A stretch of 64,000 nucleotides of DNA, taken from positions 78,128 through 142,127 of IMG/VR virus record IMGVR_UViG_3300021399_000006; one strand, given 5' to 3'. Positions 2,470 to 45,017 of the stretch are shown here, piece by piece; positions within the stretch are counted from its first letter, which is position 1; every line of letters begins with the position of its first letter. The notes under the pieces are model-generated. The model had not been told where the DNA came from. It did not search any database and saw nothing but the letters and a program-made list of their open reading frames with translations. Origin of the DNA: a virus. The translations under genes and the position numbers were made by a program.

Positions 2470-2985
2470 CTAATTTGTTGAATTATCAATTACTTTATAG
2501 GAAAAAGGAAGATTTAAAAAATCTTTTTTATCTGATAAAAATCTTCGACATATTTCATTACAATTAGGATTACCTTCTCTATTTAATTGTCTTAATAATC
2601 TAATTTTATCAGGACACCAAATAAAAATAGGAGTACAATCAATTCTATTATTTTCTAATAGCTGTTTGATTGAATTAGGAGAAAAAACACCTACATTAAT
2701 TTTATCTTCTTTTAAAACATCAATAGATGTACCATACCACCAATTATTAAAGCAAGAAAATTCTATCCACTTTTTTAAATTTTCTCCACTCATAAACTCA
2801 TTTGCTGTATTAATAAAATGATAATGTATTCCATCTGCCTAATAAGGTCTTGCAGGACGAGTAGTAGAAGATACAATTTTATTTAAATTCATTTTTGCGT
2901 AAGGTGTCTGAAAAAGGTTGGAAAGGATATAATCCTTTCCAGACCCCGCAGAACCGAATAATGCTATAATTTTATATTTATTCAT
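2470..2985 (-). pseudogene. Guanylate/dNMP kinase-like gene split by a +1 frameshift at a TAA, with one in-frame TAG
   Basis: The N-terminal P-loop piece MNKYKIIALFGSAGSGKDYILSNLFSDTLRKNEFK ends at TAA (about 2878). The rest continues in the +1 frame as ...KIVSSTTRPARPY(TAG)ADGIHYHF...FIEFSCFNNWWYGTS...IFIWCPDKIRLLRQLNREG, which carries the GMP-kinase motifs TTRxPRxG(E)xDG, YGT and RL..R. This is either a programmed +1 shift or a pseudogene/indel. Confidence 0.4.
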
Positions 2986-3190
2986 TATCTTCTTCTCCTT
3001 TTAATAAATAGAGTAATATATCTTTGGCATTATAATTAAAAATATGATAAGGATAAAAACTAAAAACATTATTAAAAATTTTACATTCATGTTTCCATTT
3101 ACATTTATCTTCTTCACATTTACCACCATTATAACATTCAATACACATAATTATAAGATTATAAGGACTCATTATTTTCCTCCATTCCAT
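2978..3190 (-). CDS. Small Cys-rich hypothetical protein
   Basis: 70-aa ORF with CIECYNGGKCEEDKCKWKHEC. Confidence 0.3.
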   Translation of the reverse strand: MEWRKIMSPYNLIIMCIECYNGGKCEEDKCKWKHECKIFNNVFSFYPYHIFNYNAKDILLYLLKGEEDNE

Positions 3191-6100
3191 ATCTTGCGGA
3201 AGCTAGTTCAATCCTTCTTCCATTTACATTCGTTATCAAATAAAGCTGGTGCCCGCCAGTACTTTTATATTTTTTAGCTACGAAAGTATCATCTCGTCTA
3301 TAACCTGTAACTAAAAGTTTATTACCACGAGTAAACCAACCTTTTTCTTTTACTTTTTTAACTCCTTCTTCATTCACTTCACTTATCTGTCTATTGAACA
3401 TTGCATAATAATCACGAGTAAATTTAACATTAACAGTTCCTGTTGGTGTTAAAAGTGTAACTATATGACGTGTATCATTTTTACCGATAACAGTTCCCGC
3501 AATCCTTTGTAACTTATAAATAGGAATTTGTTTTCCATTACGTTTGAAGAAACAATCTACTACGGGAGTTGAAGAAAGATTATTAAAATCTACGATACCA
3601 TAAAAATTATTATCAATATTTTTTAATTCATGGTCGTGATAATAGAAACATAATGATTTCATTTCCCAGAAAGAAATATTTCCTTCTGCATATTTATTCC
3701 ATTCTTCTTCAAAAAGTTTTAAATTTAATTGTTTTAAAACTTCTTGTTGATTAGACTGTAACCAGTTCCGCACTTTATCCATTACTTTTGAATAAATCTT
3801 ATCCCATACCTTTTGTTTTATTACAAAACAATTATTTATAATTTCAATATTCTCCATATCAAAATGGTCGGAATAAAAATTCATACTGTTTTGTTCGGGC
3901 ATTACATAATAATCTTGCCATTTCCTGGCTTTTAAAAATTTATTAAAATAATAAATAGTTTTCTCAAAATCTAAAGACTCTGGTAAAAGGTTATAGTTAA
4001 TAAGAGTTGCCATATTCTGAAGATTTAAACGGGTTTTAGGATTACTAGTTATAGATAAATAATAAACCATAGCCCAAGTACGTGGATCAATATTAAGAGA
4101 TTTTGCATCTTCTCTTGATAATTCATCAAAAGCACCAGCTTTAATTAAACTAATCATTGCCGTTTTATTTAACTTGCATCTATTCATAAAATCTTTAATA
4201 GATACGTATGGACGGTTTTGTTTAATCTGGTCAACAACAGATGCACCTACATTACTCAATGCCTTCATACCGAATAAGATTTGGTTATTTTCTACATCGG
4301 GTTTAAAACCATAATCTGATTTATTAATATCTACTAAACTAACTTTAATACCCGCATTAATAATTTCACCTAATGCTTTTGCAACCTTACCATAATCAGT
4401 CGCATTTTCTTTTTTCTTAATAGGAGTATCATCTTCATCATATTCAATATCATCTTCTTCTTCTTCAAGACTTCCGCTATTTACTACAAGACATGCGGCA
4501 TCCCAATAAATTGGACTCCAATGTGTAGCAATATAAGCAGTTTGAAAACCGATAAAGCTATAAGCTAAAGCGTGAATAATCGAAAAAGAATATCCCATCT
4601 GAGGACCGACGCCATTTTCCCACACATATTTCCCTAATTTTTCTGATGATGCTCGTTCTAGGATTTTTTGATGTAATTCTGGGATTTTACTCATTTGTTT
4701 TTTACCGACAATTTTTCTTGCGGCATTTGCTTCCGCCAAAGTAAAACCACAAATATTCTTATCCATAAGCATTAACATTAATTGTTCTTGTGAAGGTGGA
4801 ACTCCATATGAAGATTTAAAATATGGTTCAAGATAATCTCTTTCATTTGCTGTTAAACCAAATGTATACATTTCTTTATACCAAAGGTCAAGATTATTCT
4901 TATAACGGATATATTTTTCCATAGGTGTTTCCGCACCCTTTTCCGCTGTCATTAATCTCATAAGACCATTAGCATCTGTTAATTCAAGAATTGTTTTCGG
5001 TTTAATCTTTTTAGCGGCCTGACTACCAACTTCTGAATCAAACTGAAATACATTTATTACCGAACCATTTTGAATTGCATCCCATACATCTTTATCGTCT
5101 ATTGGTAAAACATTTGGATGGAAATATTTATCATACACAGGACGTAAATTAATTCCTGTATCTTCTATTATGCCATCTTCTTGTAAAAATCTAATTGCTT
5201 GAGCAAGTTTATCTTGAACTTCTGTAACCAGAAAGTCATATTTAACAAGACCTGCCGCTTCACAATCATGTAGATCATACTGTGTAATTATTTCTCCTTT
5301 TGGAGTTTTCATGAAACATCCAAATTCATATGGATCTTCATCGAAAAGAATTACACCAGAAGCATGACTACTACGCTTATTTACAAGACCAACAATACCA
5401 AAAATAATATCAAGAAGTCCTGGATATTCATTTACTTCTTTAACAAAAGCATGAACAGGTTCTCTATCTTTGTCTTTGTTGCCATTTATAACATCTTCAA
5501 GAGGCCATAAGAATCCTCTCTCTGAAGGAATTAATGATGCTATATATTGTGCTTCATCGTTATCAATACCATCTGGAAATTCTTCTGACCTATATCCGCG
5601 GCAGGCTGTAAGAACTGCTGACTTGGTTTGTTCTGTACCATATGTAGCTACTAAAGTACAACCTAGATTTTTTCGGGATAAATCATCTATATCAGGATTG
5701 AACCTACTGCCGCGCTCTTCTTTTATCTTTCTTACTATTGTTCCTTTTTTCGATGGACATATATCAATATCAATATCACCTAATTCAGTTCTTTCATCAT
5801 TCATATAACGAAAGAAAGGAAGGTTCCATTCAATTGGGTCAAGCTGAGTAATACCTAAAAGATAATGATTTAATGCGGCACATGATGAACCTCTCCCGGC
5901 ACCGACAAGACTTCCGCATTCCCATATCATATCAATATAATATTTTAGTGTAATAGGATATTTAAACATATTTGTTCCAAGTTTTTCTCCTATTACTTTT
6001 TTTACTCTTGCTTCTTCTTCAAGTTCATCCCAGTATTTTCTTAATTTATTTTCCATTAATGGTGAAAAATCCATTTGAGGATTCATTTTATCAATTTGAT

Positions 6101-7136
6101 TTGCACATTCATTTATCCAATATCTATCATAAATATTATCAGATAGATATAATTCATGTAAATTAGGATAAATTTTTTGTTCGTCAAACCAGTCAACATA
6201 CTGTTTAGGATAGTCTTTTACCGGTACGCTTGGAATAGTTTGATTATGAAGTAAATCATATATCTGAATTTTATCAAACATTTCCATACTATTAGCGCAC
6301 ATTTCTTCTATTAATTCGCCAATAGAAGGTTCAAGATTTTTTCTTAAATCATCTTTATCTTGGAGATATGCGTATTCATAAAAAGCATCTGTTTCTCTTT
6401 CTCCCCCTTTAGAATTAAGATATGCTTTATGAATATATCTATCTTCCTTTTTAAGATAATGGGCATCGTCTCCGATTACAATTTTTTTATCATATGAACG
6501 TGCAATTTGAACTAATTTTTTATTTGCAATAATTTGCTCTTTAGATGCTCCTGGAGCAACCTCAATATAAAAATCATTACCAAAAATTCTATCAACGAAA
6601 TCTATAAAATTAATGATTTGATTTTGTTTAATTATCACAGTCTCTTCATCTTCCATATGTCTAGCTTTTTCCATTTCTATAATACAGCTAGATAGTTCAC
6701 CGCCAAGACATGCAGACGTTGCTATAAGATGACCTGGATTCCGCATTACCACTTCTTCTAATTCACTCTTGAGAGTTGGTACACGTTCCATACCTCTATC
6801 CCAATAAGAGTTCATCCAAGCACGCGAAGATAATTGACGTAATTGTTTATGACCTTCCGCATCTTTAGCAATTAATATAAAGTGATAATACTTTATACCA
6901 TTTTGCCTTACATCTGTAAGATATATTTCATTACCTATTGCGATTTTAAAATTTGGGTTTTCTTTTTGAAGTTTACAAACACGAATAGATTGGGCAAGGG
7001 TTTCATGGTCTGTAATAGCCAATCCCGCAAGCCCAATCTCTTTTCCTCGTTTTACGAGGTCTGGTAATTTATTTATACAATCGAGAAGTCTAAAATTTGA
7101 CATCTCTGTATGACAATGTGGAACAAAACGTTGCAT
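3159..7136 (-). CDS. dnaE: DNA polymerase III alpha subunit-like replicative polymerase (DnaE family), 1325 aa, no TAG
   Basis: Uninterrupted 1325-aa ORF. N-terminal PHP domain (HCHTEMSNFRLLD, GLAGLAITDHETL), then polymerase core motifs (GSSCAALNHYLLGIT) and a C-terminal OB region. A perfect sigma70-like promoter and an AAGAGAGG RBS lie upstream. Confidence 0.85.
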   Translation of the reverse strand: MQRFVPHCHTEMSNFRLLDCINKLPDLVKRGKEIGLAGLAITDHETLAQSIRVCKLQKENPNFKIAIGNEIYLTDVRQNGIKYYHFILIAKDAEGHKQLRQLSSRAWMNSYWDRGMERVPTLKSELEEVVMRNPGHLIATSACLGGELSSCIIEMEKARHMEDEETVIIKQNQIINFIDFVDRIFGNDFYIEVAPGASKEQIIANKKLVQIARSYDKKIVIGDDAHYLKKEDRYIHKAYLNSKGGERETDAFYEYAYLQDKDDLRKNLEPSIGELIEEMCANSMEMFDKIQIYDLLHNQTIPSVPVKDYPKQYVDWFDEQKIYPNLHELYLSDNIYDRYWINECANQIDKMNPQMDFSPLMENKLRKYWDELEEEARVKKVIGEKLGTNMFKYPITLKYYIDMIWECGSLVGAGRGSSCAALNHYLLGITQLDPIEWNLPFFRYMNDERTELGDIDIDICPSKKGTIVRKIKEERGSRFNPDIDDLSRKNLGCTLVATYGTEQTKSAVLTACRGYRSEEFPDGIDNDEAQYIASLIPSERGFLWPLEDVINGNKDKDREPVHAFVKEVNEYPGLLDIIFGIVGLVNKRSSHASGVILFDEDPYEFGCFMKTPKGEIITQYDLHDCEAAGLVKYDFLVTEVQDKLAQAIRFLQEDGIIEDTGINLRPVYDKYFHPNVLPIDDKDVWDAIQNGSVINVFQFDSEVGSQAAKKIKPKTILELTDANGLMRLMTAEKGAETPMEKYIRYKNNLDLWYKEMYTFGLTANERDYLEPYFKSSYGVPPSQEQLMLMLMDKNICGFTLAEANAARKIVGKKQMSKIPELHQKILERASSEKLGKYVWENGVGPQMGYSFSIIHALAYSFIGFQTAYIATHWSPIYWDAACLVVNSGSLEEEEDDIEYDEDDTPIKKKENATDYGKVAKALGEIINAGIKVSLVDINKSDYGFKPDVENNQILFGMKALSNVGASVVDQIKQNRPYVSIKDFMNRCKLNKTAMISLIKAGAFDELSREDAKSLNIDPRTWAMVYYLSITSNPKTRLNLQNMATLINYNLLPESLDFEKTIYYFNKFLKARKWQDYYVMPEQNSMNFYSDHFDMENIEIINNCFVIKQKVWDKIYSKVMDKVRNWLQSNQQEVLKQLNLKLFEEEWNKYAEGNISFWEMKSLCFYYHDHELKNIDNNFYGIVDFNNLSSTPVVDCFFKRNGKQIPIYKLQRIAGTVIGKNDTRHIVTLLTPTGTVNVKFTRDYYAMFNRQISEVNEEGVKKVKEKGWFTRGNKLLVTGYRRDDTFVAKKYKSTGGHQLYLITNVNGRRIELASARYGMEENNESL

Positions 7137-7163
7137 TTATTAAACCTCTCTTTAATTTATTAT

Positions 7164-7192
7164 ATAAATATTATATCATAATTTTTATTAAT
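7164..7192 (-). promoter_or_regulatory. Consensus sigma70-type promoter for the DNA polymerase gene
   Basis: On the minus strand: TTGACA, a 17-nt spacer (attaataaaaattatga), then TATAAT. An RBS and the ATG at 7136 follow. Confidence 0.5.
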
Positions 7193-7385
7193 TGTCAAAA
7201 ATAAGACTCGTCTCTTGTTTTTATTTTTCTTTCAAATTCTTTACAAGTTACATAAAATTCAATTATATCAGGACAAAATTCATTATCAAGTTTTCCTTCA
7301 ACCTTTGAAATAATTTCAGGTACTTCAACTTCTGTATATTTACAAACGTTATATTTTTTACAATTTTCACATTCAAAATTAATAT

Positions 7386-7850
7386 TCATATCGGGTACTC
7401 CAATTCCTTACATTCTATTCCATGAAAATTAAAATATTCTTGTAAGTATTTTCTTTCACTACATAAATTATTAGGTGCTTCATATACCATCAAAACGATA
7501 GTATCTTTATTAAATTTATTTAAACAATATTCAAATGCTTTTATCATCGCATTAAAATTAATGGTGTTTAATAATTGTCTATATTCTTTCATACATTCAC
7601 ATTGTCCTCGTAAAGATTCTTTTTCTTCACAAGGACAGTAATGTATTCCTTTAGATTGTACTATAAGTGGTTCATATCTTAAACCGCATATAATACCTCT
7701 TTTATCTATATAATATTCTTGACCTTCTGGTGGTTGATACCAAAAAGGGTCATACATTGCTGTTGAAATAGGTATCATATTTTGTTTGAAGTTACGAATT
7801 TGGTAGAAATAGCTTGTATATATTTTATTTATTCTTTTTGATTTAACCAT
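7386..7850 (-). CDS. Hypothetical protein (154 aa)
   Basis: ORF track; flanked by two small Zn-ribbon ORFs (7195..7389 and 7829..8011, with CxxC pairs). Confidence 0.3.
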   Translation of the reverse strand: MVKSKRINKIYTSYFYQIRNFKQNMIPISTAMYDPFWYQPPEGQEYYIDKRGIICGLRYEPLIVQSKGIHYCPCEEKESLRGQCECMKEYRQLLNTINFNAMIKAFEYCLNKFNKDTIVLMVYEAPNNLCSERKYLQEYFNFHGIECKELEYPI

Positions 7851-10306: not shown

Positions 10307-12103
10307 TTAAAATACAAAATTGCCTCGGTCTATAACCTAATAGTCCTATATAAAAATTTGAGGAGTTACATTTCCCATCCATTCGTTTTGATGTGCTCTC
10401 CCTATTATATTTAATTCATAATAACCAGAAGTATTCTGTAACATATAACATTCTTCATCAGTTGCTTTAAATTTAATCAATGATATACCTTGCGGAGTAG
10501 TTATTTTTAAAGTGTTATTTTTCTTAACATAAACCGTTACCATATCTGAAGTTACTTTTAAATGTTCAATACATATGAATGGTTCATCTATATCTTTTCC
10601 CCATAAATCCTACATATTAGCAATAGTAAGTATATCATTTGGATTTATATTATTTCCTTGATAAATATAATCTACATAATACATTGCCTAATTAGGCATA
10701 TCTTTTAATAATTCATCTGTTTTTTCTATAAAGGCGGGAATGTTTTTTTGTAATATACCTAAACCAAATGCACCAGGGTGACCTACCTAATACATTGTCA
10801 AACCTGTTTCCGCGCATATACTTTTAAAATCATTTATTCCTACTTTATCACATCCTCTTGCGGAACCTTGATATGATATAGTAGTATATTCATTTACTTC
10901 TTTATAAGGTGGGCAGGGTTCCTTTTCTATAACCTTTGTTAATAAACACGTAGGTCGTTGATATTTAGCCATAATTTTATTTGCAATTAAACCTGCAATA
11001 TTCTTATCAACTTGTCCAGGTTCAAGTAAGAATAATAATACTTTATGGTCTAAAAGATGTTGTTCCTATATCATTCTTTCTATTGTTTGTAACCCTGCCT
11101 CTTGTGCTTTTGTCTGCCTGTTTTTTACATTAGTAACAATTCGCATAACTTGCTAAACAAGCTGTTCTTGCTAACCTAAGAAGTGTCCTCTTTTGGTAGA
11201 AGGTAACATTTTAAACGCTTTATGTTTTAACATAGATTCAAATGTTAATGTTTTTTCTTCTTTTGTTCCACTCCTACAAATAGCATTAATATATGGGGCT
11301 ACATAAAAAGCTACACTCATATGATTAATTTTATTATTCATAGAAAAAGCATTTTTCTCGGATAAATTTACAAAGAATGGATTTTTAAGATTATGAAATC
11401 CTTTATTAATAAGATGTTTTGTTTCAATAGATAGCATAGACATCATATCAGCGCAGTTGCCCAATGCCATTAAATCAGTATAATTATTAGCATTGTTAAT
11501 TTTTAATAAAGAGTCAAGATAACGGCAAAATTGCCAAACAACACCAGCCCCGCTAAAATCTTTATTAGGATAATTTGATAGTTGATTATTTATAACAATA
11601 GCATCAGGATTCTATACGTCACAAATATGATGATCTAAAATAATTGTACTAATACCATTTTGTTTTAAACGAGTGCATTCTTCTATATCATTACTTCCTG
11701 CATCTGGAATAATAACAAGAGAGTATATTTTAGCATTAATTATCCAATCTATATGGTCATTTAATCCATGTTGTTTTCCATCATGTACACGATAATCTAA
11801 ATTAGTTTCTACCCAGGCGGGAAACAGGTCATGTAGGTAATTAATCAAGATTGCAGAACTAGTAAAACCATCAGCATCACTATCAACAATAACTAAACAT
11901 CTATTATTATTTGAGATAGTTTTACTTAAAAGTGCAGCCGCCGCACTTAATTTTTCTTTATCTAATTCCATAAAAGAATTTATATCGTTGTCTGTTGTAT
12001 TAAGATAATGATATACGTTATTATAAGGGACTCCTCTATTAGTTAGAATTTGTTCTATTGTTGAATAACTCTAATTAATAGGATTTATTAATTGATATTT
12101 CAT
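10307..12103 (-). CDS. recJ: RecJ-like DHH-family ssDNA exonuclease, about 599 codons with about 11 in-frame TAG
   Basis: ORF-track pieces 10346..10543, 10787..10972, 11171..11470 and 11612..11971 are all in one frame, joined only by TAG. Motifs are DSDADGFTSSAIL, DHHICDV and a DHHA1-like C-terminus. Ends at TAA 10307-10309. Confidence 0.65.
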
Positions 12104-17367: not shown

Positions 17368-18363
17368 TTACCAGTTAGGCATACCGCCAAAATTAAAAGT
17401 TCCTTGAGGGATATTACCCATTGTATTAGGGGTAGGCATTGCCTGGGGAGTAGGGGCTGCCGCACCAGCATTTCTCTGTGCGTAATATGCTTTTGCATTA
17501 GCCTTAACTTCTTCCAGATGAATATTTCTATCAGTAAGAGCCTTATTTAATTCATCTTTTGTGATTGTTTCTGCAATATCAAAAATATAAGGCTGAGGTT
17601 GTGCCCATGTAATAACCCATTCTCTTTCTTGACGAACAGAAGAATCAACAATTGTTCCACCAAAAGCATTTTCCATTACTTTATCAATCTTAACGGTAGT
17701 ATTAATAATTTCTCCCATAACCTTAGTATAAACAGGATTATTGGCAGAAGCATTAAGACCAATAAAATAATTTACAGAACCAGGTGCTTTAGAATCTTTT
17801 GCAATTAAAACAATAGGTAAGATTGCATTTTTAAAATCAAATACATATGCTTTAATTCTAACAAAATCTTCTTGGATATTATGTTCAGGATCCGCAGGAA
17901 CTACAGTAGTATCATAAATGATAGTGTCAAAAGTAAATTTATTTCTTGCGTTTTCAACAGGATTTAAATCAGAAATAAAAGTTACGAAACCACCTTCACT
18001 TCTTTGACGTGTTACAAGTTGGTCTCCACCTTGAGGATAAAAATCATTCAAAGCAAGAGAAGGTTCTACTCTCAACTTCTGTGCGGCATCCTTTCCTACA
18101 TTAAGCCATGTTTTTCCATTTTCAAGAATTTGTTTTAAATTAACAAATGTACTATTGACTGCATTTGCCTTTGTAAATTCTTTTACAAAGGTATAATGTA
18201 CAGGGATTACATTCAATCCTTCTTCATCTGTTGCAATAAAGATTTCTCCTGAAATAAAATCAAGACCATAAAAAGCTGAATTTTTATTAGTAACTTTTTT
18301 CATTTCAAGTTTGTGGTCATAAAGTCTTCCTTCAATTTTCTAAGCATTAATATTTTTTCTCAT
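17368..18363 (-). CDS. Hypothetical protein (about 331 aa, 1 in-frame TAG), Gly/Pro-rich C-terminus
   Basis: ORF track 17368..18303, extended through TAG to ATG 18361-18363, which has a strong GGAGAAAAAT SD. Confidence 0.4.
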
Positions 18364-18450
18364 ATTTTTCTCCTAATTATTTTTTCACATTTATGTTTTC
18401 TTTTTTACTTTATATTAATATTATATAATAAAATTTTATAAAAATCAAAT

Positions 18451-19311
18451 TTACTGATTAAACAAAATTAATTCTTCGGCATAAGGTAAAGTTTTCACCC
18501 AATTACAAAAGTCTTGACTCCATTCAGTAAGTTTATGATTTTTACGTTGTCCATACATATTTCGTAATGTTTCATAGTTTGCTGTCCAAGTTCTAGTTTG
18601 TAGCCATCCCTCAGGAAGCCAACGTATAAGTTCTTTCCAATATTTTTTATCTTTTGTTTCAAGATACCGTTTTCTAAGAGTTTCACATATATCAATAATA
18701 TAATCTATACAGTCATCGGTGGTATCATCAATAGTATATGGTTCACCATTAAAAATAACTATATCTGAATTATAATCTCCCATTTCAAAACAATCTTTAG
18801 TAATAGGAGTACTAGCTAACTTATGCATTGTTGATGTTGAATTAGCAACTGTTGATACTTTATAAGTATCTGCCTCCTTCCACCAATACAACGGTGCAGT
18901 TATGTCAACAGAAACAAAAATTTGACGAAGAAATTTTCTATCACTTGAGCCAGCTTTAATCATACGTTGCGCTAAATCTAAATCTTTTGGACCTAATAGA
19001 GCTAAATCAAAAATTGTCGTTCCATTATCATCTTCTGATAAAACACTATTTTTTATAAGCCAATCTATATAGCTATCTTCTAATCTACAGTATTCAAGGC
19101 TTCCTTCTTCGATTACTTTTTGATTATTTTTTTCTGCTTTAATATTATAATCAGTTATCCACTCATGCGCAACTAAAAGAGTTGCTTCATAACTATACTC
19201 TTCAGGATACATTCCAAAACCACTATCACTTTTTCCCCAACTTTCAAGAGGATTACGTAAACCGCGGAAAGCACCTTCGAAATTCATTACTTTAGTATTC
19301 TCAAATTTCAT
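18451..19311 (-). CDS. Hypothetical protein (286 aa)
   Basis: ORF track; start overlaps the stop of the GIY-YIG gene (TAATG). Confidence 0.35.
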   Translation of the reverse strand: MKFENTKVMNFEGAFRGLRNPLESWGKSDSGFGMYPEEYSYEATLLVAHEWITDYNIKAEKNNQKVIEEGSLEYCRLEDSYIDWLIKNSVLSEDDNGTTIFDLALLGPKDLDLAQRMIKAGSSDRKFLRQIFVSVDITAPLYWWKEADTYKVSTVANSTSTMHKLASTPITKDCFEMGDYNSDIVIFNGEPYTIDDTTDDCIDYIIDICETLRKRYLETKDKKYWKELIRWLPEGWLQTRTWTANYETLRNMYGQRKNHKLTEWSQDFCNWVKTLPYAEELILFNQ

Positions 19312-20267
19312 TATTTATTTCCTTTCGTTACGTTTAAACCTACTTTATTTGATTGATACATCTAAATCCAAAAACGTTCTTTTTCATTTAACTTATCACG
19401 AGTACATTTCTAAAGAATTTCAAAAGTGAAATTCCATACGCCATATTTCTGCATATTATTATAAAGTTTATTCGTTGCGGAAGCATCTATACCAAGACCA
19501 CATTTTACATGCTGTTTCCATCTATCTGCAACATTAACACTTTGTCCAATATATATGTCTTCAGTTTGTTTATTAGTAATTTTATAAATTCCACAAACAG
19601 AACCACTACCTAATACACGATTACATAAATCAGTAGTAGGTTTCATTACAAAAGCAGACCAAATAATTTTAGAAACAATAGAAGGGTCATTAAGCTCTTT
19701 TTTCCATTCTTGAAGATGTGTAATATCATTAATTTGTTTTTCAGATATTTTTATACGATAAAAAGATATTTTATCCTATTCTTCTTGCTATCTAAGACGT
19801 GCGGCGGTCGCAGCCTAATATACAGATTTAAGCTAGACCAAACTCGATTGAATCTAATTCCGCTATCTCTATATTTTACCTATCTATTGATATAATTGAG
19901 ATTTCATTTCTATCTACTCTTGACGGATAGACTAATGAAAATCCTAACGATGTTTTATTCGTTGCTCTTCATAGTTTTGTTCTATTTGCTATAGTTCATC
20001 TTGACGAGTTTTCTTTCTAGTATCTAATATCGTTTGTTCCTATTGTTGTAACTGTTTTAACTATAAAAGTTTATTTTGTTTATTAATAATCTACTGATTT
20101 AAATTAGATATTTTAATCTATCTATTTCTTATCTATATTTTTATATTCTATTTTTCTTTTTCTAATGTTATTTCTTGCTATTTTAATTGCCGCACCTTAT
20201 TAAATAAATAATAAGCAAATATAAGCACTATAAAAAAGAAAATTATTAAGACTGCTCGTCCTAGCAT
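19311..20267 (-). CDS. Membrane-anchored, Q-rich coiled-coil, GIY-YIG nuclease fusion protein, about 318 codons with about 21 in-frame TAG
   Basis: The frame stays open from ATG 20265-20267 to TAA 19311-19313 with no TAA or TGA. It reads MLGRAVLIIFFFIVLIFAYYLF (TM helix), then about 200 aa of heptad-like Q/E/K-rich sequence in which most Q are TAG (e.g. KQLQQQEQTILDTRKK), then a GIY-YIG domain (GIYKITNK...YIGQS...RWKQH...NEKERFWI). Confidence 0.55.
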
Positions 20268-20276
20268 TATATTAAA

Positions 20277-20306
20277 GAACGGGTTAAGTATAAAAACTTA
20301 ACCCGT
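20277..20306 (-). terminator. Perfect 11-bp inverted repeat (hairpin) between the 20318 gene and the GIY-YIG fusion gene
   Basis: aacgggttaag ... cttaacccgtt, followed on the minus strand by a U-rich stretch. Confidence 0.4.
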
Positions 20307-20317
20307 TATAAGAAAAA

Positions 20318-20629
20318 TTATTCGTCTGTTTCTGGGTCAAAGTTGCGGCCGGACTCAGTTAATTTAACAAACTTAACAGACTCATGCTTAATACTACCAT
20401 CTTTATTTTCAATTTGAAGTTCGCCTTCAACTCTTGTAGCAAGCGGGTCTTTTACTTTTTCATCTCCTACCGTCTTAGTATGTCTTGAAAAAGCACCTGT
20501 GATAATACCATTTACAGAACGAGGATCCATATCAAGGGCTGCCGCAATGTCCTTTGCAGTAATATCCTTATCTTCATTTTCCTTAATGTAGTTAAATACT
20601 AGCTTTGTGTTTTCCTTAAATTTTGCCAT
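20318..20629 (-). CDS. Hypothetical small protein (103 aa), possibly DNA-binding
   Basis: ORF track. Confidence 0.35.
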   Translation of the reverse strand: MAKFKENTKLVFNYIKENEDKDITAKDIAAALDMDPRSVNGIITGAFSRHTKTVGDEKVKDPLATRVEGELQIENKDGSIKHESVKFVKLTESGRNFDPETDE

Positions 20630-20700
20630 TTTGTTTTCTCCTTTTATTAAAAAAATTAAATTGTTTTATTTATAATTAATTATATATATTAATATAATTA

Positions 20701-20877
20701 TTATATTCCTTTTAAAGATTCTCGGATAATATCATTAATTTCTAAAATTTCTGCTGTTGTAAGCTATTTCGTGATTTTAGATATTTCTTGATATTTTTTT
20801 ACTTTAGACATATTTTTGTCTTTAGATATAGCATAAAACTGACTTGCTATACTTCTAAGTTCTTCTTTATTTTTCAT
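20701..20877 (-). CDS. Small hypothetical protein (58 aa, 1 in-frame TAG)
   Basis: MKNKEELRSIASQFYAISKDKNMSKVKKYQEISKITK(Q)LTTAEILEINDIIRESLKGI. Confidence 0.25.
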
Positions 20878-20899
20878 AATTTATTATACCAAAAATTTT

Positions 20900-22912
20900 T
20901 CAATTAATCAAGTCAATAAGTTGCTTTTCTGTAATAATCGGGATGTTCAATTCTTTCGCCGTTTTATTTTTACTAGAAGTAGAATTAACATCGTTATTTA
21001 CGAGATAATTAGTTTTTTTAGATACCGATCCCGTAACTTTTCCGCCATTACTTTCGATAAAATCTTTTAATTCATTTCTATTTTTAAATTCAATAGTTTT
21101 ACCCGTAATTACAAAGATTTTATCTTTAAGTTTTTTATCTTCATCTTTATCTTCTTCTGGAACTGAAGATATGATTTCAATTATATGGTTATCAAAAATA
21201 TTATCAGCTTCAGTATAGTCAAAAGTAGTAAGAGTCTTTATCATAACTTCACCGATACCTTTAATATTATAAAGTCTATCATCTTCATCTGGGAAATCAA
21301 CAGCATGTCTAAATCCATTATATGTATGATATACTTTAATTAAATCTTCTGAAGCTACTTTACCTATCTGTGGAATACCAATTGCCGCAATAAATTTAGA
21401 TGCTGTGCAATTTTTACCTTCTTCTATTGCTGATAATATTTTATCAACAGAAGCTATTCCAAAACCTTCTTTTTCAATCCATTCATTACGATGCTCTTGT
21501 AATTTAAAAATATCTTCTAAAGAATTAATCCATCCCCAATCAATAAGTTTTTCGAGAGTTTTTTTAGATAATCCTTTTATATCAAGTCCTTTTTTCCCAC
21601 AGAAATGGTCAAGGCGATTAATTAATTTACCACTGCAAAGAGGGTTTTCACAATACGCTCTTTCTACACCATTTTCTTCTTTAAAAGATATTTCTCCATG
21701 ACAAATAGGGCAAAACTCTGGAGAATCATTTGCTGAGACTCCTCCCTTAGAAATAACTTCTCCGTAATTGTATTTAGGCCCTGCGGAATAAATTTGAGGA
21801 ATTATCATATTGCTTTTAAATACTTCAAGAGGTTCACCTACATAGGCGCAATCCCCCAAAGTTTCTCGCATAACACTAACATTATGTAGAGAAGCACGGG
21901 AGACCTCTGCACCATCTATTTCAATGGGGTCAAATACTGCTACTGGAGTTAAAACTCCTGTTCTACCCATTGTCCAATCAATATGGCGAAGGCGGGTTGA
22001 ATATGTTTCATCGTAAAATTTATAAGCGATGCCGCCTTTGAAGTGATGGTCTGTTCTACCTGCCGCTTCATATTCTATAATATTATCATACTTAAAAACA
22101 ATTCCATCAATAGGATATGAATAAAGACTTACTGCACCTTTTAAAAAATCAATAGCATATTCAATGGAATATTTTTTTGTATAATAAGGAACAGTTATAA
22201 AGCCTTGTTCTTTTAATAAATCAAGTTTTTGTGATAATTTTTTAATAGTATAACCATCAGATATATTATATTTAGTATTATTAAAAAAACAATCCCAAGC
22301 TACAAAAGTAAGATGTCTATTTTTACATTCTTTAGAATCAAGAAGTCTTATACTCCCGCTTGCAAAATTACGAGGATTTTTAAAGAACTTTTGAAAAGGT
22401 TCAAAATCTTTTTTTGTGCAAATGATTTCTCCATCAACAATAAGTTCTTCTCCATCATTTTCACAATGAATATGTTTAGGAATAGAAGGAATTACCATAG
22501 CGTTATGAGTAATATCTTCTCCAATCACACCATTTCCTCTTGTTTCTGCGGAAACTAATTCTCCATTAACATATCGTAAAGAACAAGTAAGACCGTCCAT
22601 TTTAGCCATAGCAATCCATTCTTTATCATCAAGAAATGTTTTAATTTCTTCTTTATCTTTTGTTTTTTGAAGAGAAAGCATAGGATGATTATGAGTAACT
22701 TTTTTTAATTTATTAACTACATTATAATGAATTGTTTGAGTAGGAGAATCGGGGTAAATAAGACCAGTTTCTTTTTCAAGACCTTCTAATCTATAATACA
22801 TTATATCCCATTCCATATCAGTAAGATATGGCTTTCCTTTGTCATAGGCTTCTGTTGCTTGATTTAATTTATTTATAAAAGTTCTTATATCTTTTGAATT
22901 ATTTATCATCAT
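20900..22912 (-). CDS. ligA: NAD-dependent DNA ligase LigA
   Basis: Adenylation motif AKMDGLTCSLRY (KxDG), Zn finger CPICHG...C, C-terminal BRCT-like domain. Confidence 0.8.
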   Translation of the reverse strand: MMINNSKDIRTFINKLNQATEAYDKGKPYLTDMEWDIMYYRLEGLEKETGLIYPDSPTQTIHYNVVNKLKKVTHNHPMLSLQKTKDKEEIKTFLDDKEWIAMAKMDGLTCSLRYVNGELVSAETRGNGVIGEDITHNAMVIPSIPKHIHCENDGEELIVDGEIICTKKDFEPFQKFFKNPRNFASGSIRLLDSKECKNRHLTFVAWDCFFNNTKYNISDGYTIKKLSQKLDLLKEQGFITVPYYTKKYSIEYAIDFLKGAVSLYSYPIDGIVFKYDNIIEYEAAGRTDHHFKGGIAYKFYDETYSTRLRHIDWTMGRTGVLTPVAVFDPIEIDGAEVSRASLHNVSVMRETLGDCAYVGEPLEVFKSNMIIPQIYSAGPKYNYGEVISKGGVSANDSPEFCPICHGEISFKEENGVERAYCENPLCSGKLINRLDHFCGKKGLDIKGLSKKTLEKLIDWGWINSLEDIFKLQEHRNEWIEKEGFGIASVDKILSAIEEGKNCTASKFIAAIGIPQIGKVASEDLIKVYHTYNGFRHAVDFPDEDDRLYNIKGIGEVMIKTLTTFDYTEADNIFDNHIIEIISSVPEEDKDEDKKLKDKIFVITGKTIEFKNRNELKDFIESNGGKVTGSVSKKTNYLVNNDVNSTSSKNKTAKELNIPIITEKQLIDLIN

Positions 22913-27750: not shown

Positions 27751-27848
27751 AAGAAAAATAAATGACAAAAGTGGGTAGAAACGTAATATATATATCTATA
27801 GACAAAAATAACGGTGTGTAGTATTAAATACTACACACCTTTTTTATT
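27751..27848 (+). ncRNA. Candidate small RNA of about 95 nt, running from the predicted TSS to an intrinsic terminator
   Basis: A consensus promoter lies immediately upstream and there is no SD. The only ORF is about 20 codons. It ends in the hairpin GGTGTGTAGTA-ttaaa-TACTACACACC followed by T6. Confidence 0.35.
27813..27846. terminator. Bidirectional intrinsic terminator
   Basis: 11-bp perfect stem plus T6. It terminates the plus-strand sRNA and lies just past the endolysin stop on the minus strand. Confidence 0.55.
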
Positions 27849-29319
27849 ATATTGCTTGGACATATCTGTAATTAATAAAACCATAAATTTTATTATCTAT
27901 ACGAATATAATACCATGTTGTGCCATTGCTAGCTTGTATACTATCACAGACCTATACTATTTTATTCTTATAAATAATTGGAATACTCTTTAAAGTTTTA
28001 TATTCAACACCTGCCCAACTTCTTACGTATAAAGCATTTGCAGTAACTTTAGCTTTAAAATAATTATCACGGGCGGGAGATGCTTTACCTGTTCTAGTAA
28101 ATGTAGTTTTAGATGTTGCTAATAAAATTTTATCATTATTAGTGTTTTTTGCTGGAGTTACCTTCTATTCTGTTTTAGGTGTAGTTTCCGCCTTCGCATA
28201 TTTAGGAATAGCATAACCGCGAATGTTACCATTAGCTACTTTTAAAGAGCGACGCGCAACTACTCCGCTATTTCCTGTATTTCCTTCTATTGTAGTAATA
28301 GTATTGCCCGAAACTTTTTCAACAATACCAATATGATCTGCAAAACCATCATTTGGTTGAGTACCATCATCCCAGTTATATGTTATAATCCATCCTGGCT
28401 GAGGAGTAACTGAACCATTTTCCTACCATATACCCGCTTTCTTAAATAATTGAATATGTCTTTCAACGCCACATTCTGTTCCACCAATTAAATCGACAGC
28501 GTTATTTTTAATAAATGCCGCAGATAATGTTGTATCACAATAGTCATCAGTATATTTAACTTTATAGCCAACCGCCAAAGGGGTATGACTATTATATAAA
28601 TCAATTATATCTCTATGAGTTTGTTTAGCTTTACTCTTGCCAATCCAACCCTACATAGTTTTTATAATATCTTTTGCGGTAGTTCCTTTAGTTGGAATAG
28701 GAGTTGTAATAGGTCGTTCCTATACTTCTGCTCCATAAAAATAATTCATATCAACATTTCCAGAAATGCCGTTTACTTTTCCTTTGCTTGTATATTGTTG
28801 ATAAGTACAAGGAAAATGAGGTTCAGGGTTATAATCTGCTAACCATACAATATATTTTTTAATAGTTGCCGCATCGTACCAATTTTTATAATAATCTTGA
28901 TTTAAATAAAAACCAGCTTTGTAACCTTTACTTTTGACGTAATCGCAAAAGGCATTTGTAAATTCGATACAATTTGTTTTAGTTAAATAAACCTTTTTAT
29001 TTTTTGCGCTTTTTACGGTATCGTATTCAAAGTCATAAAATATAATAATATCTTTTCCTAGACCTGCGGCCTCCACATTTTTAATACAACTTTTTGCTTC
29101 TTCTACGGCATCGTTTTTATTTAAAGCATAAGCAAAATGATAAACTCCATGAATAGGGATTCCCGCCTATTTAAATTTTTTTACATTAGCGATAAAATAT
29201 TTATCAATTGTTTTTCTGTATCCCTATCTAATAATAACAAAATCAATTCCTGATGTTTTTACTTTCTTAGCGTCAATATTACCTTGCCACTAAGAAATAT
29301 CAATACCTTTTAATGCCAT
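27847..29319 (-). CDS. Multidomain endolysin: GH25 muramidase + CHAP/NlpC-P60-like + SH3b, about 490 codons with about 8 in-frame TAG
   Basis: N-terminus MALKGIDIS(Q)WQGNIDAKKVKTSGIDFVIIR(Q)GY is GH25-like (ORF-track 28720..29076 is in frame). The middle carries ...DHIGIVEKVSGNTITTIEGNT (CHAP/NlpC-like). The C-terminus WAGVEYKT...WYYIRIDNKIYGFINYRYV is SH3b-like. All pieces are joined only through TAG. Confidence 0.65.
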
Positions 29320-41999: not shown

Positions 42000-44588
42000 A
42001 TGAATTACGGTAGTTTTTACGGAGGTCGCCGCGGCGCTTCCTTTGTGATAGTAAAAAGTTATCCTGATATTATAAGTATGACTAATGAATTTGGGAGAGG
42101 CCCAAATTTTAATGAAGTCGAATTTGATGAGTATGTTATTATTAATACTATTAATAAAAATCATCCAGATAACGGAAAAATTTTTAGACGTGGATATGAT
42201 TATAATAGCGGAAGAAAAATTTCAGGATATAGAGCTTTCTGGGAAAAGGATGGAACTGAATATGAAATTATTAATGGAATTCCTTACGATGAAAGCGGAA
42301 ATGAAATAGAGTATGATTCTGACATAAGTATATATTTAAATGCACGATATTAGCCAGATATTGATATAGATGCAAAAGGAGCACAGTATATTGGTACTAT
42401 TGTTGGACCTTCTGGAAGAGCGCCATTAGTAGAAATGGATACGTATGACTCTGTAATGGAGAAGTCCGCAGAAGAAGGTTTTTAGATACAAACTTCTCAT
42501 GGAGATTATACTCTTAGTAATGATAGTTTAATGCCAGGTAAATATTAGGAAAATGGGGTTCCTAAATATAACGATAAGATTCAATGGTTTTGTGCATCAT
42601 TAAGAAATGATAAAAATGATGATAGTATTGCTTATATAGGTTTTAAAACGCCTTATTTAGTAATAGATTTTTTAACAGAACAAATTTCTCCTTATGATAA
42701 TCAAGGTGTTTATATGGATGCTTCTGCGGCAACAAGAATTGAAGATTCTACTACAGAAGGACATCCTTTTTATGAGAAATGGAGACTTTCAATTCCAAAT
42801 GGTATACAAGGGGATAGTTTAAATAATTTAAGAATAATTACTTTTGATGACCCTACTTTATATAATAGTGAATTAAACACTTATACAAGAATTTATATTT
42901 CTTAGGATTTCTATTATTTTTACAATACTGCTGAAGAAAGATTTTTAGGATGTTCTGAAAATGAAGGTGTTTAGATTGAGTCAGAAGGATCTATAACTAT
43001 TAATCAACAAAATGATTATATTACAGTTTATCCTAATACAAAAATTATTGTATATGATAGATTTTCTTATGAAGAAAGAAAAAATCCTACTTAGCCTGAA
43101 AAAACCTATTTCGTAGGAATATATAATCAAATAAAACAAAATGGTTTTATTATTGATGACTATGGAAATATCCATATTGATTTTACAGACGGAACCTCAC
43201 TTGATAAATAGCGTTTTTTAAAAATCATTAAGAACGTGGCTTTCGAAAAAAATGATAATAACGAATTATATATGAATATAATTTTTAATACATTGAAATA
43301 GAATGAAGAGGGAGAAGAGGAAGAACAGTAGTTTGATTCTGTATCATTCCCAATTAAAATTATAGAAGATATAACATTAGATGATGATAGTGTTTTAAAT
43401 ATTTCTTTAACAGATAATTCTACTCTTAGTTTTCCTTTTAAAACAATTTCTAATATAGTGACAGATTAGAATGGAATAACCATAAATTATAGTACAAAGG
43501 ACAATAGCGGGGCTAATGAAAGTGTTTTTCTTCCTATGTCATGGGTTTCTGATTTACAACTTTTAGAAGACGGTACTGTTCAAATTCGTAGAAATAATTT
43601 TGTTAACAGTGAGAGTTGGAGGAATTTAGAAAATAAATTAAGATGGATTACTGGAGTTGATTATGATTCAGGTACGGGTGATATTACGTTAAATTTTAAT
43701 AATGGAAAGCCAGCTACTTATAAGTTAAAAATAGTTAATAGTATTGGTTTTAATGAAGAAACTAATAGTTTAGTAGTTAGATATAATACAGATGTTCCTG
43801 GATCAGAACCAACTCAAATTCGATTAACGGGAAAATTAATCACTAAGATGTCATATGATGAAATCACAGGACAAATTGTTGTGACATATACAGGTGAGAA
43901 CAACACAGAGACATTTGATTTAGGGAAAGTACCAACAAGTTTTATTTTTAATAATAGTAATCCAAATGGTGATTCTATTTTACGTATAAAACATGGTGAA
44001 GAGGATATTTTAACTAGCAGCCCTATTACATCTATATATGATATGAAAATAACTCCTGGACATCATTTAGCAGTATTATTTAATGATGCTAACTTACGTG
44101 AATCAATAAAAAGTAGTGGAAAAGGATTAACATTAACGTCTTCACGAGACAATATTTCATATGATGGTTGGTTAGACCTGGGTAGCGTATTTGTAGATTC
44201 TGGTATTTTTATTGGTACAAATTTAACTTATGAAGATTTAGAATTAACTGCGGCGACCGCTACGATTGATGATGTAGTTAATGAACTTAATGAAAGACTT
44301 CCTGGTGGATTAGGAGGAGACGGTGATAATAGAGATTATTTAAAAGAAAAAATTGTTACCGTTGGAGAAAATAATCAAAAGAAAGAATTTTATGGTTTTG
44401 ATTATGATTATAAAGCAGATTCTCCTGAAGAATATAAAGGATGGTATTATCTAGGTTCTATTGAAAGTGCAGCTGCCGCAACCAAATCAAGCTGTCGTAT
44501 GGGAAGCGCTGATGATCAATCTCGATAGGGACAAGAAATTGAGACTGAAGGTCTATACTTTTTAACAGAAGAATGGCAGGAGGGATAA
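42000..44588 (+). CDS. Structural protein D (862 codons, about 12 TAG), tail-fibre/baseplate-like
   Basis: Fragments 42000..42353, 42714..42905 and 43536..44528 are in one frame. The frame continues through TAG 44526-28 to TAA 44586-88. Confidence 0.55.
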
Positions 44589-44592
44589 TCTA

Positions 44593-44895
44593 ATGAATGG
44601 TTATCAAGGACAAATACGGGCAAGAGACCAAAGTTAGGGACATTTTTCTCCAGAACAAGATATATTTACTTTAATAAGTGAATAGTGTCAAAAAGGAACG
44701 TCAGGAGAAGGAATTATTAGTTTATCAAAATTTGGTATCTTTGCTCCTGAAGGAACTATTATATTATTAAATAATAAAGAAATAAAAATAGGAAAAACAA
44801 AAATTTATTAGATAGATGAAGTTAATATTACTTCAATAAAATTTTTGGAAAATTCTTCAAATGAGGTTATTATAGATTTTGTTGTATCCTATTGA
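44593..44895 (+). CDS. Small structural-module protein E (100 codons, 3 TAG)
   Basis: Ends at TGA, showing that TGA is still a stop. Confidence 0.4.
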
Positions 44896-45017
44896 TTGGT
44901 CAAAATGTAATAATAGTTTTAATTATATTTTTAATAAATAATGAAATGATTTAAAGGTATTAGCTACTATAAAATGGTAGTTAATACCTTTTTTAGTATA
45001 AAAATGAGGTTTCTTTG

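What the first reader, a model, noticed from the sequence alone, without database searches (positions are those of the whole stretch)
19311..20267. TM helix, Q-rich coiled coil and C-terminal GIY-YIG nuclease, with about 21 of 318 codons being TAG
A 640-nt stretch that looks non-coding under the standard code is actually one open frame on the minus strand. It has no TAA or TGA for about 318 codons, which by chance would be about 1e-6 at this AT content. It runs from ATG 20265-67 into the GIY-YIG ORF. The N-terminus is a hydrophobic helix (AVLIIFFFIVLIFAYYLF). About 200 aa of heptad-like sequence follow, in which the Gln residues are overwhelmingly TAG-encoded. A complete GIY-YIG domain follows. 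GIY-YIG domains are normally N-terminal and soluble, so a membrane-anchored, coiled-coil-tethered nuclease is unusual. The TAG load would make its expression absolutely suppressor-dependent, a plausible safety lock for a host-DNA nuclease.
Basis: seen in the sequence. Interest (0 to 1): 0.8.

Follow-up and report, generated by a model that had tools for sequence, protein, structure and literature searches.

The report
Membrane-tethered phage nuclease read through TAG
The stretch is a real phage gene, readable only when TAG means glutamine, that encodes a DNA-cutting enzyme held at the inner face of the cell membrane by a long helical stalk; it belongs to a large undescribed family that resembles, but is not related to, the recently described bacterial defence nuclease SNIPE.

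Summary
Minus-strand 20267..19311 is one 318-codon frame with 21 in-frame TAG and no TAA or TGA. None of 20,000 shuffles gave such a frame.

It is a real gene.
- An identical 318-aa protein is already in public databases.
- Relatives down to about 30% identity keep the same plan: an N-terminal membrane helix, a helix of about 140 residues, a conserved helical adaptor of about 55 aa, and a C-terminal I-TevI-type GIY-YIG domain with all catalytic residues.
- Some relatives are clean standard-code ORFs. Others carry TGA at invariant Trp positions.
- The invariant Gln of YIGQS is CAA here and TAG in two relatives, so TAG means Gln.
- An amber-suppressor tRNA lies about 2.9 kb beyond the window in the same genome.

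The gene sits at a fixed place in the replication module, so it is not a mobile homing endonuclease. In six lineages 31-54% of its Gln codons are TAG, against 2-9% pooled over neighbouring genes.

The closest analogue is SNIPE (membrane anchor, DUF4041, GIY-YIG). Profile comparison shows only motif-level similarity, so this is an analogue, not a member.

I rate it a new variant of a known kind, of moderate interest.

The parts
19311..20267 (-). Complete gene: 318 codons plus TAA, read with TAG = Gln. It has 21 in-frame TAG. The first is codon 30 (20180-20178). Codons 286 (19412-19410) and 302 (19364-19362) lie inside the nuclease domain.
   Evidence: An identical 318-aa protein, P0001, is in the public collection. 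Homologues in 9 lineages also have no TAA/TGA in frame.
20202..20255 (-). N-terminal transmembrane helix, about aa 5-22. K/R residues sit on its C-terminal side (NKVRQLK), so the predicted topology is N-out, C-in.
   Evidence: Kyte-Doolittle 19-residue mean is 2.6, and it is the only such segment. 137 of 149 family representatives and 30 of 33 MAG loci have an N-terminal hydrophobic helix. Topology is inferred from the positive-inside rule.
19776..20201 (-). Long alpha-helical, Gln-rich stalk (aa 23-164), probably a coiled coil. It holds 19 TAG and 17 CAA/CAG codons. Its sequence varies between relatives but its length is kept.
   Evidence: AlphaFold2 predicts a single helix over residues 2-164, with pLDDT above 90 for residues 40-130. 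The conserved module starts at a median of residue 138, IQR 129-150, in 136 representatives.
19596..19775 (-). Conserved helical adaptor (aa 165-224; FY..., W188, K189, P195, IWS, KP, CNR). It packs against the nuclease domain and matches no known family.
19314..19595 (-). GIY-YIG catalytic domain of the I-TevI type (aa 225-318). Y228, Y239, R249, H253, E297 and N312 are conserved.
20278..20307 (-). Intrinsic-terminator-like hairpin (12-bp stem) between the upstream 103-aa ORF and the start codon. A hairpin sits at the same place in five relatives, with different stem sequences.
20318..20629 (-). Conserved upstream partner ORF (103 aa, TAG-free, phrog_2113, function unknown). It lies directly upstream of the nuclease gene in 25 of 33 relatives.
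18451..19311 (-). Downstream ORF (286 aa, TAG-free, phrog_6721, function unknown). Its ATG overlaps the nuclease gene's TAA by one base (TAATG). Some relatives carry a Thy1/ThyX gene at or near this position.

Best explanation
What is shown:
- This is a genuine protein-coding gene of a TAG-to-Gln recoded siphophage whose host is probably a gut Firmicute.
- The product has a single N-terminal transmembrane helix, a helix of about 140 residues, a conserved helical adaptor of about 55 aa, and a C-terminal I-TevI-type GIY-YIG catalytic domain with an intact active site.
- It has no homing-endonuclease DNA-binding domain.
- It occupies a fixed position in the replication module (GyrB-GyrA-LigA-103aa-[this gene]-286aa-YorF-AAA_24-YorH-DnaB) across a large phage clade. 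That clade includes standard-code, TAG-recoded and TGA-recoded members.
- In recoded members this gene carries recoded stops while most neighbouring replication genes do not.
- The same genome encodes a tRNA with anticodon CUA.

What is inferred:
- The bulk of the protein faces the cytoplasm (positive-inside rule).
- The stalk oligomerises as a coiled coil and holds two or more nuclease heads roughly 15-20 nm from the membrane.
- Full-length, active enzyme is made only once the phage suppressor tRNA is available, that is, not at the very start of infection.

Proposed role, about 0.35 on its own: the tether keeps a non-specific nuclease away from the phage's own replicating DNA and directs it at DNA that arrives at the membrane. 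The prime candidate is the genome of a superinfecting phage, as shown experimentally for the unrelated but architecturally parallel SNIPE.
For: The ORF is real:
- 0 of 20,000 shuffles gave a frame free of TAA/TGA.
- An identical protein is in the public databases.
- No TAA/TGA occurs in frame in 9 lineages.
- Standard-code full-length homologues exist, for example L019, 319 aa.

Codon meaning:
- The invariant Q242 of YIGQS is CAA here and TAG in L012 and L014.
- In TGA-recoded relatives, TGA sits at the near-invariant W203 and at W278.

Architecture:
- AlphaFold2 full-length model.
- C-terminal module model with pLDDT 92.5.
- An N-terminal hydrophobic helix is conserved in 137 of 149 representatives and 30 of 33 MAG loci.

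Nuclease:
- Pfam, TIGR01453 and PDB I-TevI matches with aligned catalytic residues.

Core gene with fixed synteny.

Gene-specific recoding:
- TAG share of Gln codons is 31-54% in this gene against 2-9% pooled over neighbouring genes. Fisher p is 1e-4 to 1e-8 in six lineages.
- In TGA-recoded L027, only this gene and the next one carry TGA.

Suppressor tRNA(CUA): found on contig L017, which is 100% identical to window 53182-64000.

Precedent for the mechanism: SNIPE is membrane-anchored with an N-out, C-in topology. Removing its anchor makes it toxic through host-DNA cleavage, and it cuts DNA during injection (PMC13190303).
Against: - No activity, localisation, topology or timing has been measured. 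The role is by analogy only.
- The family is not homologous to SNIPE beyond the GIY-YIG core motif.
- Superinfection-exclusion genes are usually accessory and patchy. This gene is core and sits among replication genes, which fits a role in the phage's own DNA metabolism at least as well.
- Exclusion would be most useful early, while TAG-dependence argues against very early expression.
- Heptad periodicity is only moderate, so a single long helix rather than a coiled coil is not excluded.
- Standard-code relatives show that code-gating is not required for the family's function.
- The window copy lacks the Shine-Dalgarno-like sequence seen upstream of relatives.
Confidence: 0.6

Rival explanations
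1. Host-chromosome degradation or nucleotide scavenging. The enzyme cuts host DNA, much as T4 endonuclease II does. Code-gating delays this until the phage is ready.
For: - Some relatives have Thy1/ThyX directly downstream or one gene downstream.
- Phass-1 has NrdD/NrdG and ThyX within 5 kb of its copy.
- The gene lies in the DNA-metabolism module.
- Recoded stops are consistent with holding back a toxic activity.
Against: - A conserved membrane tether restricts access to the nucleoid. In SNIPE the tether is precisely what prevents host-DNA cleavage.
- No mechanism for sparing phage DNA is evident.
- The downstream gene in this window is not detectably ThyX.
- Late synthesis would be of little use for supplying nucleotides to replication.
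Confidence: 0.2
2. A role in the phage's own DNA transactions at the membrane, such as organising or processing membrane-associated replication intermediates or resolving branched DNA before packaging. A comparison from my own knowledge, not tested here, is phi29 p16.7, which has a membrane anchor, a coiled coil and a DNA-binding domain.
For: - Fixed position in the replication module in about 26 of 33 relatives.
- Core distribution across the clade.
- Constrained stalk length.
Against: - There is no similarity to p16.7 or to any resolvase beyond the general GIY-YIG fold.
- Recoded stops set it apart from the neighbouring GyrA, LigA, YorF and DnaB genes, which carry no or almost no TAG, suggesting different timing.
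Confidence: 0.15
3. A free-standing mobile homing endonuclease of the I-TevI type that happens to be fused to an N-terminal extension. A variant of this idea is that there are two separate genes.
For: The best sequence matches are homing endonucleases: TIGR01453, PHROG and PADLOC "homing endonuclease" models, and many phage homing endonucleases in tblastn and BFVD.
Against: - The catalytic domain is C-terminal and ends the protein.
- No NUMOD, zinc-finger or HTH DNA-binding domain is present.
- The position is fixed across relatives of 30-100% identity, whereas true homing endonuclease genes sit at variable places in the same loci (L001 280-1005; L004 7810-8448).
- No intron or other RNA family was found.
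- The frame is continuous, and the adaptor helices pack on the nuclease in a high-confidence model.
Confidence: 0.03
4. A lysis-related membrane protein, spanin-like or holin-like. The reasoning is that it combines a membrane helix, a coiled coil and heavy recoding, as lysis cassettes do in recoded phages.
For: - A weak PHROG Rz-like spanin match (E 0.029).
- Lysis genes are preferentially recoded (bioRxiv 10.1101/2021.08.26.457843).
Against: - The endolysin has GH25, CHAP and GW domains, pointing to a Gram-positive host that needs no spanin.
- The most conserved part is an intact nuclease.
- The weak match is explained by composition alone.
Confidence: 0.02

Closest known systems
SNIPE / PD-lambda-1 (DUF4041 protein; Saxton et al., Nature 2026, PMC13190303)
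   Same: Both have a single membrane helix near the N-terminus, an elongated helical middle and a GIY-YIG-superfamily nuclease at the C-terminus. The predicted topology here is N-out, C-in, which was demonstrated experimentally for SNIPE. In both families the N-terminal region varies while the nuclease is conserved. The E. coli SNIPE copy I retrieved is itself phage-borne, in a lambdoid prophage.
   Different: The nuclease here is the I-TevI/PF01541 type, not T5orf172/MUG113. There is no DUF4041. Profile-profile alignment covers only 29 columns at the GIY...YIG...R motif, with probability 63%. The protein is shorter (318 aa against 500 aa). It is a core gene of a replication module rather than a defence-island or moron gene, and it is recoded.
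I-TevI catalytic domain / group I intron GIY-YIG homing endonucleases (TIGR01453; PDB 1ln0, 1mk0)
   Different: The domain order is reversed, with the nuclease at the C-terminus. There is no linker or DNA-binding domain, no intron, a fixed genomic position, and a membrane anchor.
Phage T4 endonuclease II (DenA; PDB 2wsh)
   Different: EndoII is small and soluble and acts on unmodified host DNA. Sequence identity is only 13%.
Stop-codon-recoded phage genes (code 15): Borges et al. (bioRxiv 10.1101/2021.08.26.457843), Peters et al. (PMC9523058), Phass-1 group (PMC10607447)
   Same: TAG is read as Gln by a phage suppressor tRNA. Recoded stops concentrate in a subset of genes while the replication machinery is mostly in standard code. 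Phass-1 carries a 326-aa homologue with 8 TAG next to two tRNA-Sup-CTA genes.
   Different: The published emphasis is on structural and lysis genes. Here a nuclease embedded in the replication block is the most TAG-dense gene in the window (6.6 per 100 codons). The pattern recurs in TGA-recoded relatives.

Membership tests
GIY-YIG nuclease superfamily (Pfam PF01541) | GIY and YIG motifs, conserved Arg, His/Tyr, catalytic Glu and Asn, on the alpha/beta GIY-YIG fold | tested here: met
I-TevI-like homing endonuclease (TIGR01453, group I intron endonuclease) | Catalytic-domain similarity above the curated cut-off | tested here: met
   TIGR01453 scores 69.7 bits against a cut-off of 56.05, but only profile positions 3-89 of 215 are matched.
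I-TevI-like homing endonuclease (TIGR01453, group I intron endonuclease) | [quoted passage not shown] | tested here: not met
   The protein ends 10 residues after the domain. No NUMOD or HTH family appears in Pfam scans of 38 and 68 members.
I-TevI-like homing endonuclease (TIGR01453, group I intron endonuclease) | Mobile or sporadic distribution, or residence in an intron or intein | tested here: not met
   The synteny is the same in relatives from 100% down to about 30% identity. No Rfam intron was found in 18000-21500.
SNIPE / PD-lambda-1 | Transmembrane helix near the N-terminus with the bulk of the protein cytoplasmic | tested here: inconclusive
   The helix is present and conserved. The orientation is only inferred from K/R residues on the C-terminal flank. 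No topology predictor or experiment was available.
SNIPE / PD-lambda-1 | Central DUF4041 domain (PF13250) | tested here: not met
   SNIPE itself hits PF13250 at E 1e-19. PF13250 is not among member P0001's matches at E<=10, nor among the 25 most frequent families in the 38-member or the 68-member scan. hhalign of the family against a 35-sequence SNIPE alignment does not align the adaptor.
SNIPE / PD-lambda-1 | C-terminal T5orf172/MUG113-type GIY-YIG nuclease | tested here: not met
   The members hit PF01541 rather than PF10544/PF13455. The profile-profile match covers 29 columns with probability 63%. PADLOC returned only homing-endonuclease models and coiled-coil matches, and no PD-lambda-1 model appeared among those listed.
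SNIPE / PD-lambda-1 | Cleaves phage DNA during injection and protects the cell | not testable with these tools
   This requires experiments.
Code-15 (TAG to Gln) recoded phage gene | In-frame TAG at positions that are Gln in relatives, with no other in-frame stops | tested here: met
   The invariant Q242 is CAA here and TAG in L012 and L014. Q145 is TAG in 6 of 6 aligned lineages. TAG columns otherwise hold E, Q, K, N or D.
Code-15 (TAG to Gln) recoded phage gene | Suppressor tRNA with anticodon CUA in the same genome | tested here: met
   tRNA(CUA) lies at L017:6625-6697. L017 is 100% identical to window 53182-64000 over 10,819 bp, which places the tRNA about 2.9 kb beyond the window end. Its charging with Gln was not tested.
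Rz-like spanin / lysis protein | Significant family match and a Gram-negative envelope to span | tested here: not met
   phrog_89 matches only at E 0.029. The endolysin has GH25, CHAP and GW domains, typical of Gram-positive hosts.

The most novel reading that the evidence does not exclude
A whole clade of large gut Firmicute phages carries, as a core gene of the replication module, its own membrane-tethered nuclease. On this reading the nuclease works like SNIPE, shredding DNA that enters through the membrane as a phage-versus-phage exclusion weapon. It would have been built independently from an I-TevI-type homing-endonuclease domain. In recoded lineages its synthesis would be gated by the phage's genetic-code switch.
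Probability: 0.3. Interest if true: 0.75.

Novelty: new variant of a known kind. Interest (0 to 1): 0.55.

Why it matters
If the inferred mechanism holds, three things follow.
- Spatial self/non-self discrimination by a membrane-tethered nuclease was shown only in 2026, for bacterial SNIPE. This family would show that the same solution arose a second time from a different GIY-YIG lineage, as a core phage gene.
- It would be a concrete, testable case in which stop-codon recoding controls a potentially toxic enzyme that is neither structural nor a lysis protein, inside an otherwise standard-code early operon. The pattern is convergent in TAG-recoded and TGA-recoded relatives.
- On the practical side, standard-code annotation fragments this gene. 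The GenBank record of Phass-1, for example, splits it into two "hypothetical proteins". The family is therefore under-annotated.

Tried and rejected
- **Non-coding RNA or group I intron in the "non-coding" 640 nt.** Rfam at E<=1 found nothing relevant in 18000-21500.
- **Homing endonuclease.** Rejected on domain order, the missing DNA-binding domain and the fixed synteny.
- **Spanin or holin.** Rejected, as set out under the rivals.
- **SNIPE membership.** I recovered the SNIPE gene from E. coli using a primer sequence in the paper's supplement. I built a 35-sequence alignment and compared profiles. Only motif-level similarity appeared.
- **My interim idea that every family member carries in-frame TAG.** Refuted by the genome-contig scan: 15 of 33 are clean standard-code ORFs and 3 are TGA-recoded.
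- **My initial guess that the downstream 286-aa gene is ThyX.** Not supported. There is no BLASTP similarity to a relative's Thy1, and it falls in phrog_6721, of unknown function.
- **A promoter between the terminator hairpin and the ATG.** The only sigma-70-like hit has its -10 box overlapping the start codon, so it cannot serve this gene.
- **Nucleotide searches of the phage collection.** No close relative was found. By protein, only Phass-1 covers more than the nuclease domain.
- **AFDB50 fold search.** The library was not available.
- **Uzume, Zorya, Jet and Lamassu matches in PADLOC.** I judged these to be coiled-coil composition matches, not homology.
Full report
**1. The observation**

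On the minus strand, ATG 20267-20265 opens a frame that runs for 318 sense codons to TAA 19313-19311. It contains 21 TAG and no TAA or TGA. Nineteen of the TAGs fall in codons 30-164, and two (286 and 302) lie inside the nuclease domain.

In the N-terminal 512 nt the other two minus-strand frames carry 10 and 12 TAA/TGA and only 7 and 3 TAG. None of 20,000 dinucleotide-preserving shuffles produced any frame free of TAA/TGA. The analytic expectation is 1.5e-6. Under the standard code the stretch 19647-20317 has no minus-strand ORF of 30 aa or more.

Two details in the finding need correction. The helical region is about 140 aa, not 200. Gln is not "overwhelmingly" TAG-encoded: the gene has 21 TAG against 24 CAA/CAG.

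**2. It is a real gene, and TAG means Gln**

A protein identical over all 318 residues is already in the public protein collection. Relatives with 50-97% identity and full-length coverage are numerous, on contigs of 130-178 kb. I fetched DNA for relatives down to about 30% identity. Every one has an uninterrupted frame apart from 7-21 TAG.

Three observations fix the reading of the codons:
- The invariant Gln of the family motif YIGQS is CAA in the window and TAG in L012 and L014.
- A scan of species-representative genomes found 33 loci with the whole C-terminal module. Of these, 15 are clean standard-code ORFs with the same plan (for example L019, 319 aa), 15 carry TAG, and 3 carry TGA.
- In those three, TGA falls exactly on the near-invariant Trp203 and on Trp278.

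The window itself holds no suppressor tRNA. Contig L017 is 100% identical to window 53182-64000 and extends 9.6 kb further. It carries a 30-gene tRNA array that includes tRNA(CUA), about 2.9 kb past the window end.

Window-wide, genes fall into two classes, TAG-free and TAG-using. This matches the published picture for code-15 phages and the Phass-1 group.

**3. Anatomy**

- Residues 5-23 form the only strongly hydrophobic segment. K/R residues follow it, so the positive-inside rule puts the N-terminus outside and the rest in the cytoplasm. This orientation is an inference.
- AlphaFold2 on a 38-sequence alignment gives one helix over residues 2-164, with pLDDT above 90 for 40-130. A low-confidence hinge follows at 159-169, then two helices (176-189 and 196-219), then the GIY-YIG fold.
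- A model of residues 140-318 on a more diverse alignment is confident (pLDDT 92.5, pTM 0.83). It shows the adaptor helices packed on the nuclease domain.
- Y228, Y239, R249, H253, E297 and N312 align to the I-TevI catalytic residues and are conserved in 68 diverse members.
- The adaptor (aa 165-224) is highly conserved but matches no Pfam family and has no separate structural hit.
- Heptad regularity is good for 23-72 and 114-150 and weak between them. "Coiled coil" is therefore likely but not proven.

**4. Family and context**

A profile of the adaptor plus nuclease, searched against 1.84 billion representative proteins, found 703 clusters at E<=1e-30. Nearly all place the module at the C-terminus of proteins of 290-350 aa. 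Of the top 149, 137 have an N-terminal hydrophobic helix. The module starts at a median of residue 138 (IQR 129-150), so stalk length is constrained while stalk sequence is not.

Gene order is conserved in the fetched metagenome loci and in about 26 of 33 MAG-binned loci: GyrB-GyrA-(LigA)-~103 aa-[this gene]-next gene-YorF-AAA_24-YorH-DnaB. True mobile GIY-YIG homing genes occur at variable places in the same loci.

The divergent Phass-1 phage has a 326-aa homologue with 8 TAG in a different neighbourhood, next to two tRNA-Sup-CTA genes and NrdD/G. Its GenBank record annotates the gene as two fragments.

All genome-contig hits are MAG contigs binned mostly as Bacilli, Clostridia or Mollicutes. 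The window's endolysin has GH25, CHAP and GW domains. The host is therefore probably a Gram-positive gut bacterium, as proposed for Phass-1.

**5. The recoding pattern**

This gene is the most TAG-dense in the window, at 6.6 per 100 codons. Its TAG share of Gln codons (47%) is, however, the same as in the structural genes (37-44%) and the endolysin (44%). The density simply reflects a Gln-rich stalk.

The striking feature is the contrast with its neighbours. In six lineages the gene uses TAG for 31-54% of its Gln codons. GyrA, LigA and YorF use none, and the neighbouring genes pooled use 2-9% (Fisher p 1e-4 to 1e-8). In TGA-recoded L027, only this gene and the next one carry TGA among 11 ORFs.

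Without read-through only a 29-residue peptide would be made. TAGs at 286 and 302 precede the catalytic Glu and Asn, so the internal standard-code ORF would also be inactive. Standard-code relatives show that the gating is not essential to the family. It marks the gene as one that is not needed before the code switch.

A terminator-like hairpin lies directly upstream of the start codon in all six lineages examined, with different stem sequences. I could not place a promoter between it and the gene.

**6. Mechanism**

Shown: a conserved, membrane-helix-bearing protein with an intact GIY-YIG active site, fixed in a replication module, and dependent on stop-codon read-through in this phage.

Inferred: it is a DNA endonuclease tethered to the cytoplasmic face of the membrane on a long, probably oligomeric, stalk.

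The best-characterised protein with this plan is SNIPE. In SNIPE the anchor keeps the nuclease off the chromosome, and the enzyme cuts phage DNA as it is injected. On that analogy I favour exclusion of incoming DNA, at about 0.35. The alternatives are host-DNA breakdown (about 0.2), a role in the phage's own membrane-associated DNA transactions (about 0.15), and other roles. The core, syntenic position and the non-early expression count against the exclusion idea. The conserved tether counts against simple host-DNA degradation.

**7. Comparison with known families, and novelty**

The nuclease domain is a member of the GIY-YIG superfamily and is nearest to I-TevI. The protein fails the other defining features of homing endonucleases.

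It works, on paper, like SNIPE but is not a member. It has no DUF4041. Its nuclease belongs to a different Pfam family. Profile-profile similarity is restricted to 29 columns of the core motif.

Full-text searches found no description of this family. The Phass-1 paper does not mention it. Both ingredients, a membrane-tethered GIY-YIG nuclease and recoded phage genes, are known. I therefore rate it a new variant of a known kind, with moderate interest (0.55).

Noticed in passing
window 33032-35533 (-): An 833-aa TAG-free ORF matches the Major Vault Protein shoulder domain (PF11978, E 1e-21), plus Vault_3 and SPFH/Band 7. A vault- or SPFH-like protein in a phage genome is unusual.
   Followed up: no
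window 20278-20307 (-), and the equivalent spot in L002, L004, L007, L009 and L012: A terminator-like hairpin sits directly upstream of the nuclease gene's start codon in six lineages, with different stem sequences. There is no room for a promoter between it and the gene.
   Followed up: partly
window 62924-62999 (-): ARAGORN calls a tRNA with a four-base anticodon "gcat". The loop reads TTGCATA, so it is probably a Cys(GCA)-like tRNA. Rfam does not call it at the gathering score.
   Followed up: partly
L017:1-9600 (same genome, just beyond window position 64000): An array of about 26 further tRNA genes includes tRNA(CUA) at 6625-6697, which ARAGORN labels "Pyl". This is the likely amber suppressor.
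   Followed up: partly
window 27847-29319 (-): An endolysin with GH25, CHAP and GW domains and 8 in-frame TAG sits among mostly TAG-free genes next to GyrB. It also points to a Gram-positive host.
   Followed up: no
window 10307-12103 (-): A RecJ-like DHH exonuclease carries 10 in-frame TAG although it is a replication/repair-type gene. TAG use is therefore not limited to structural and lysis genes.
   Followed up: no
window 52023-55886 (+): A 1287-aa TAG-free ORF with collagen-like repeats and a metallophosphatase domain lies in a patch of higher G+C (0.42 against about 0.30).
   Followed up: no
window ~36130-36285: Gene orientation switches from minus to plus here and the GC-skew sign flips at the same point. 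The plus-strand genes from 36285 to 45839 are all TAG-rich.
   Followed up: no
L011 (Phass-1, OQ749652) 6644-7624: The GenBank record annotates the homologous 326-aa gene as two separate "hypothetical protein" fragments, because TAG was read as stop.
   Followed up: yes
L016 (E. coli 118UI) 2501-4003: The E. coli SNIPE (DUF4041) gene lies inside a lambdoid prophage next to ren and replication protein P. The bacterial defence nuclease is therefore itself phage-borne in this strain. 130 of 5,426 complete E. coli genomes match its 5' end.
   Followed up: partly
L026, L027, L028: Relatives with 23-28% G+C read TGA as Trp in this gene. TGA falls at the near-invariant Trp203 and at Trp278. One phage clade therefore contains standard-code, TAG-recoded and TGA-recoded members.
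   Followed up: partly
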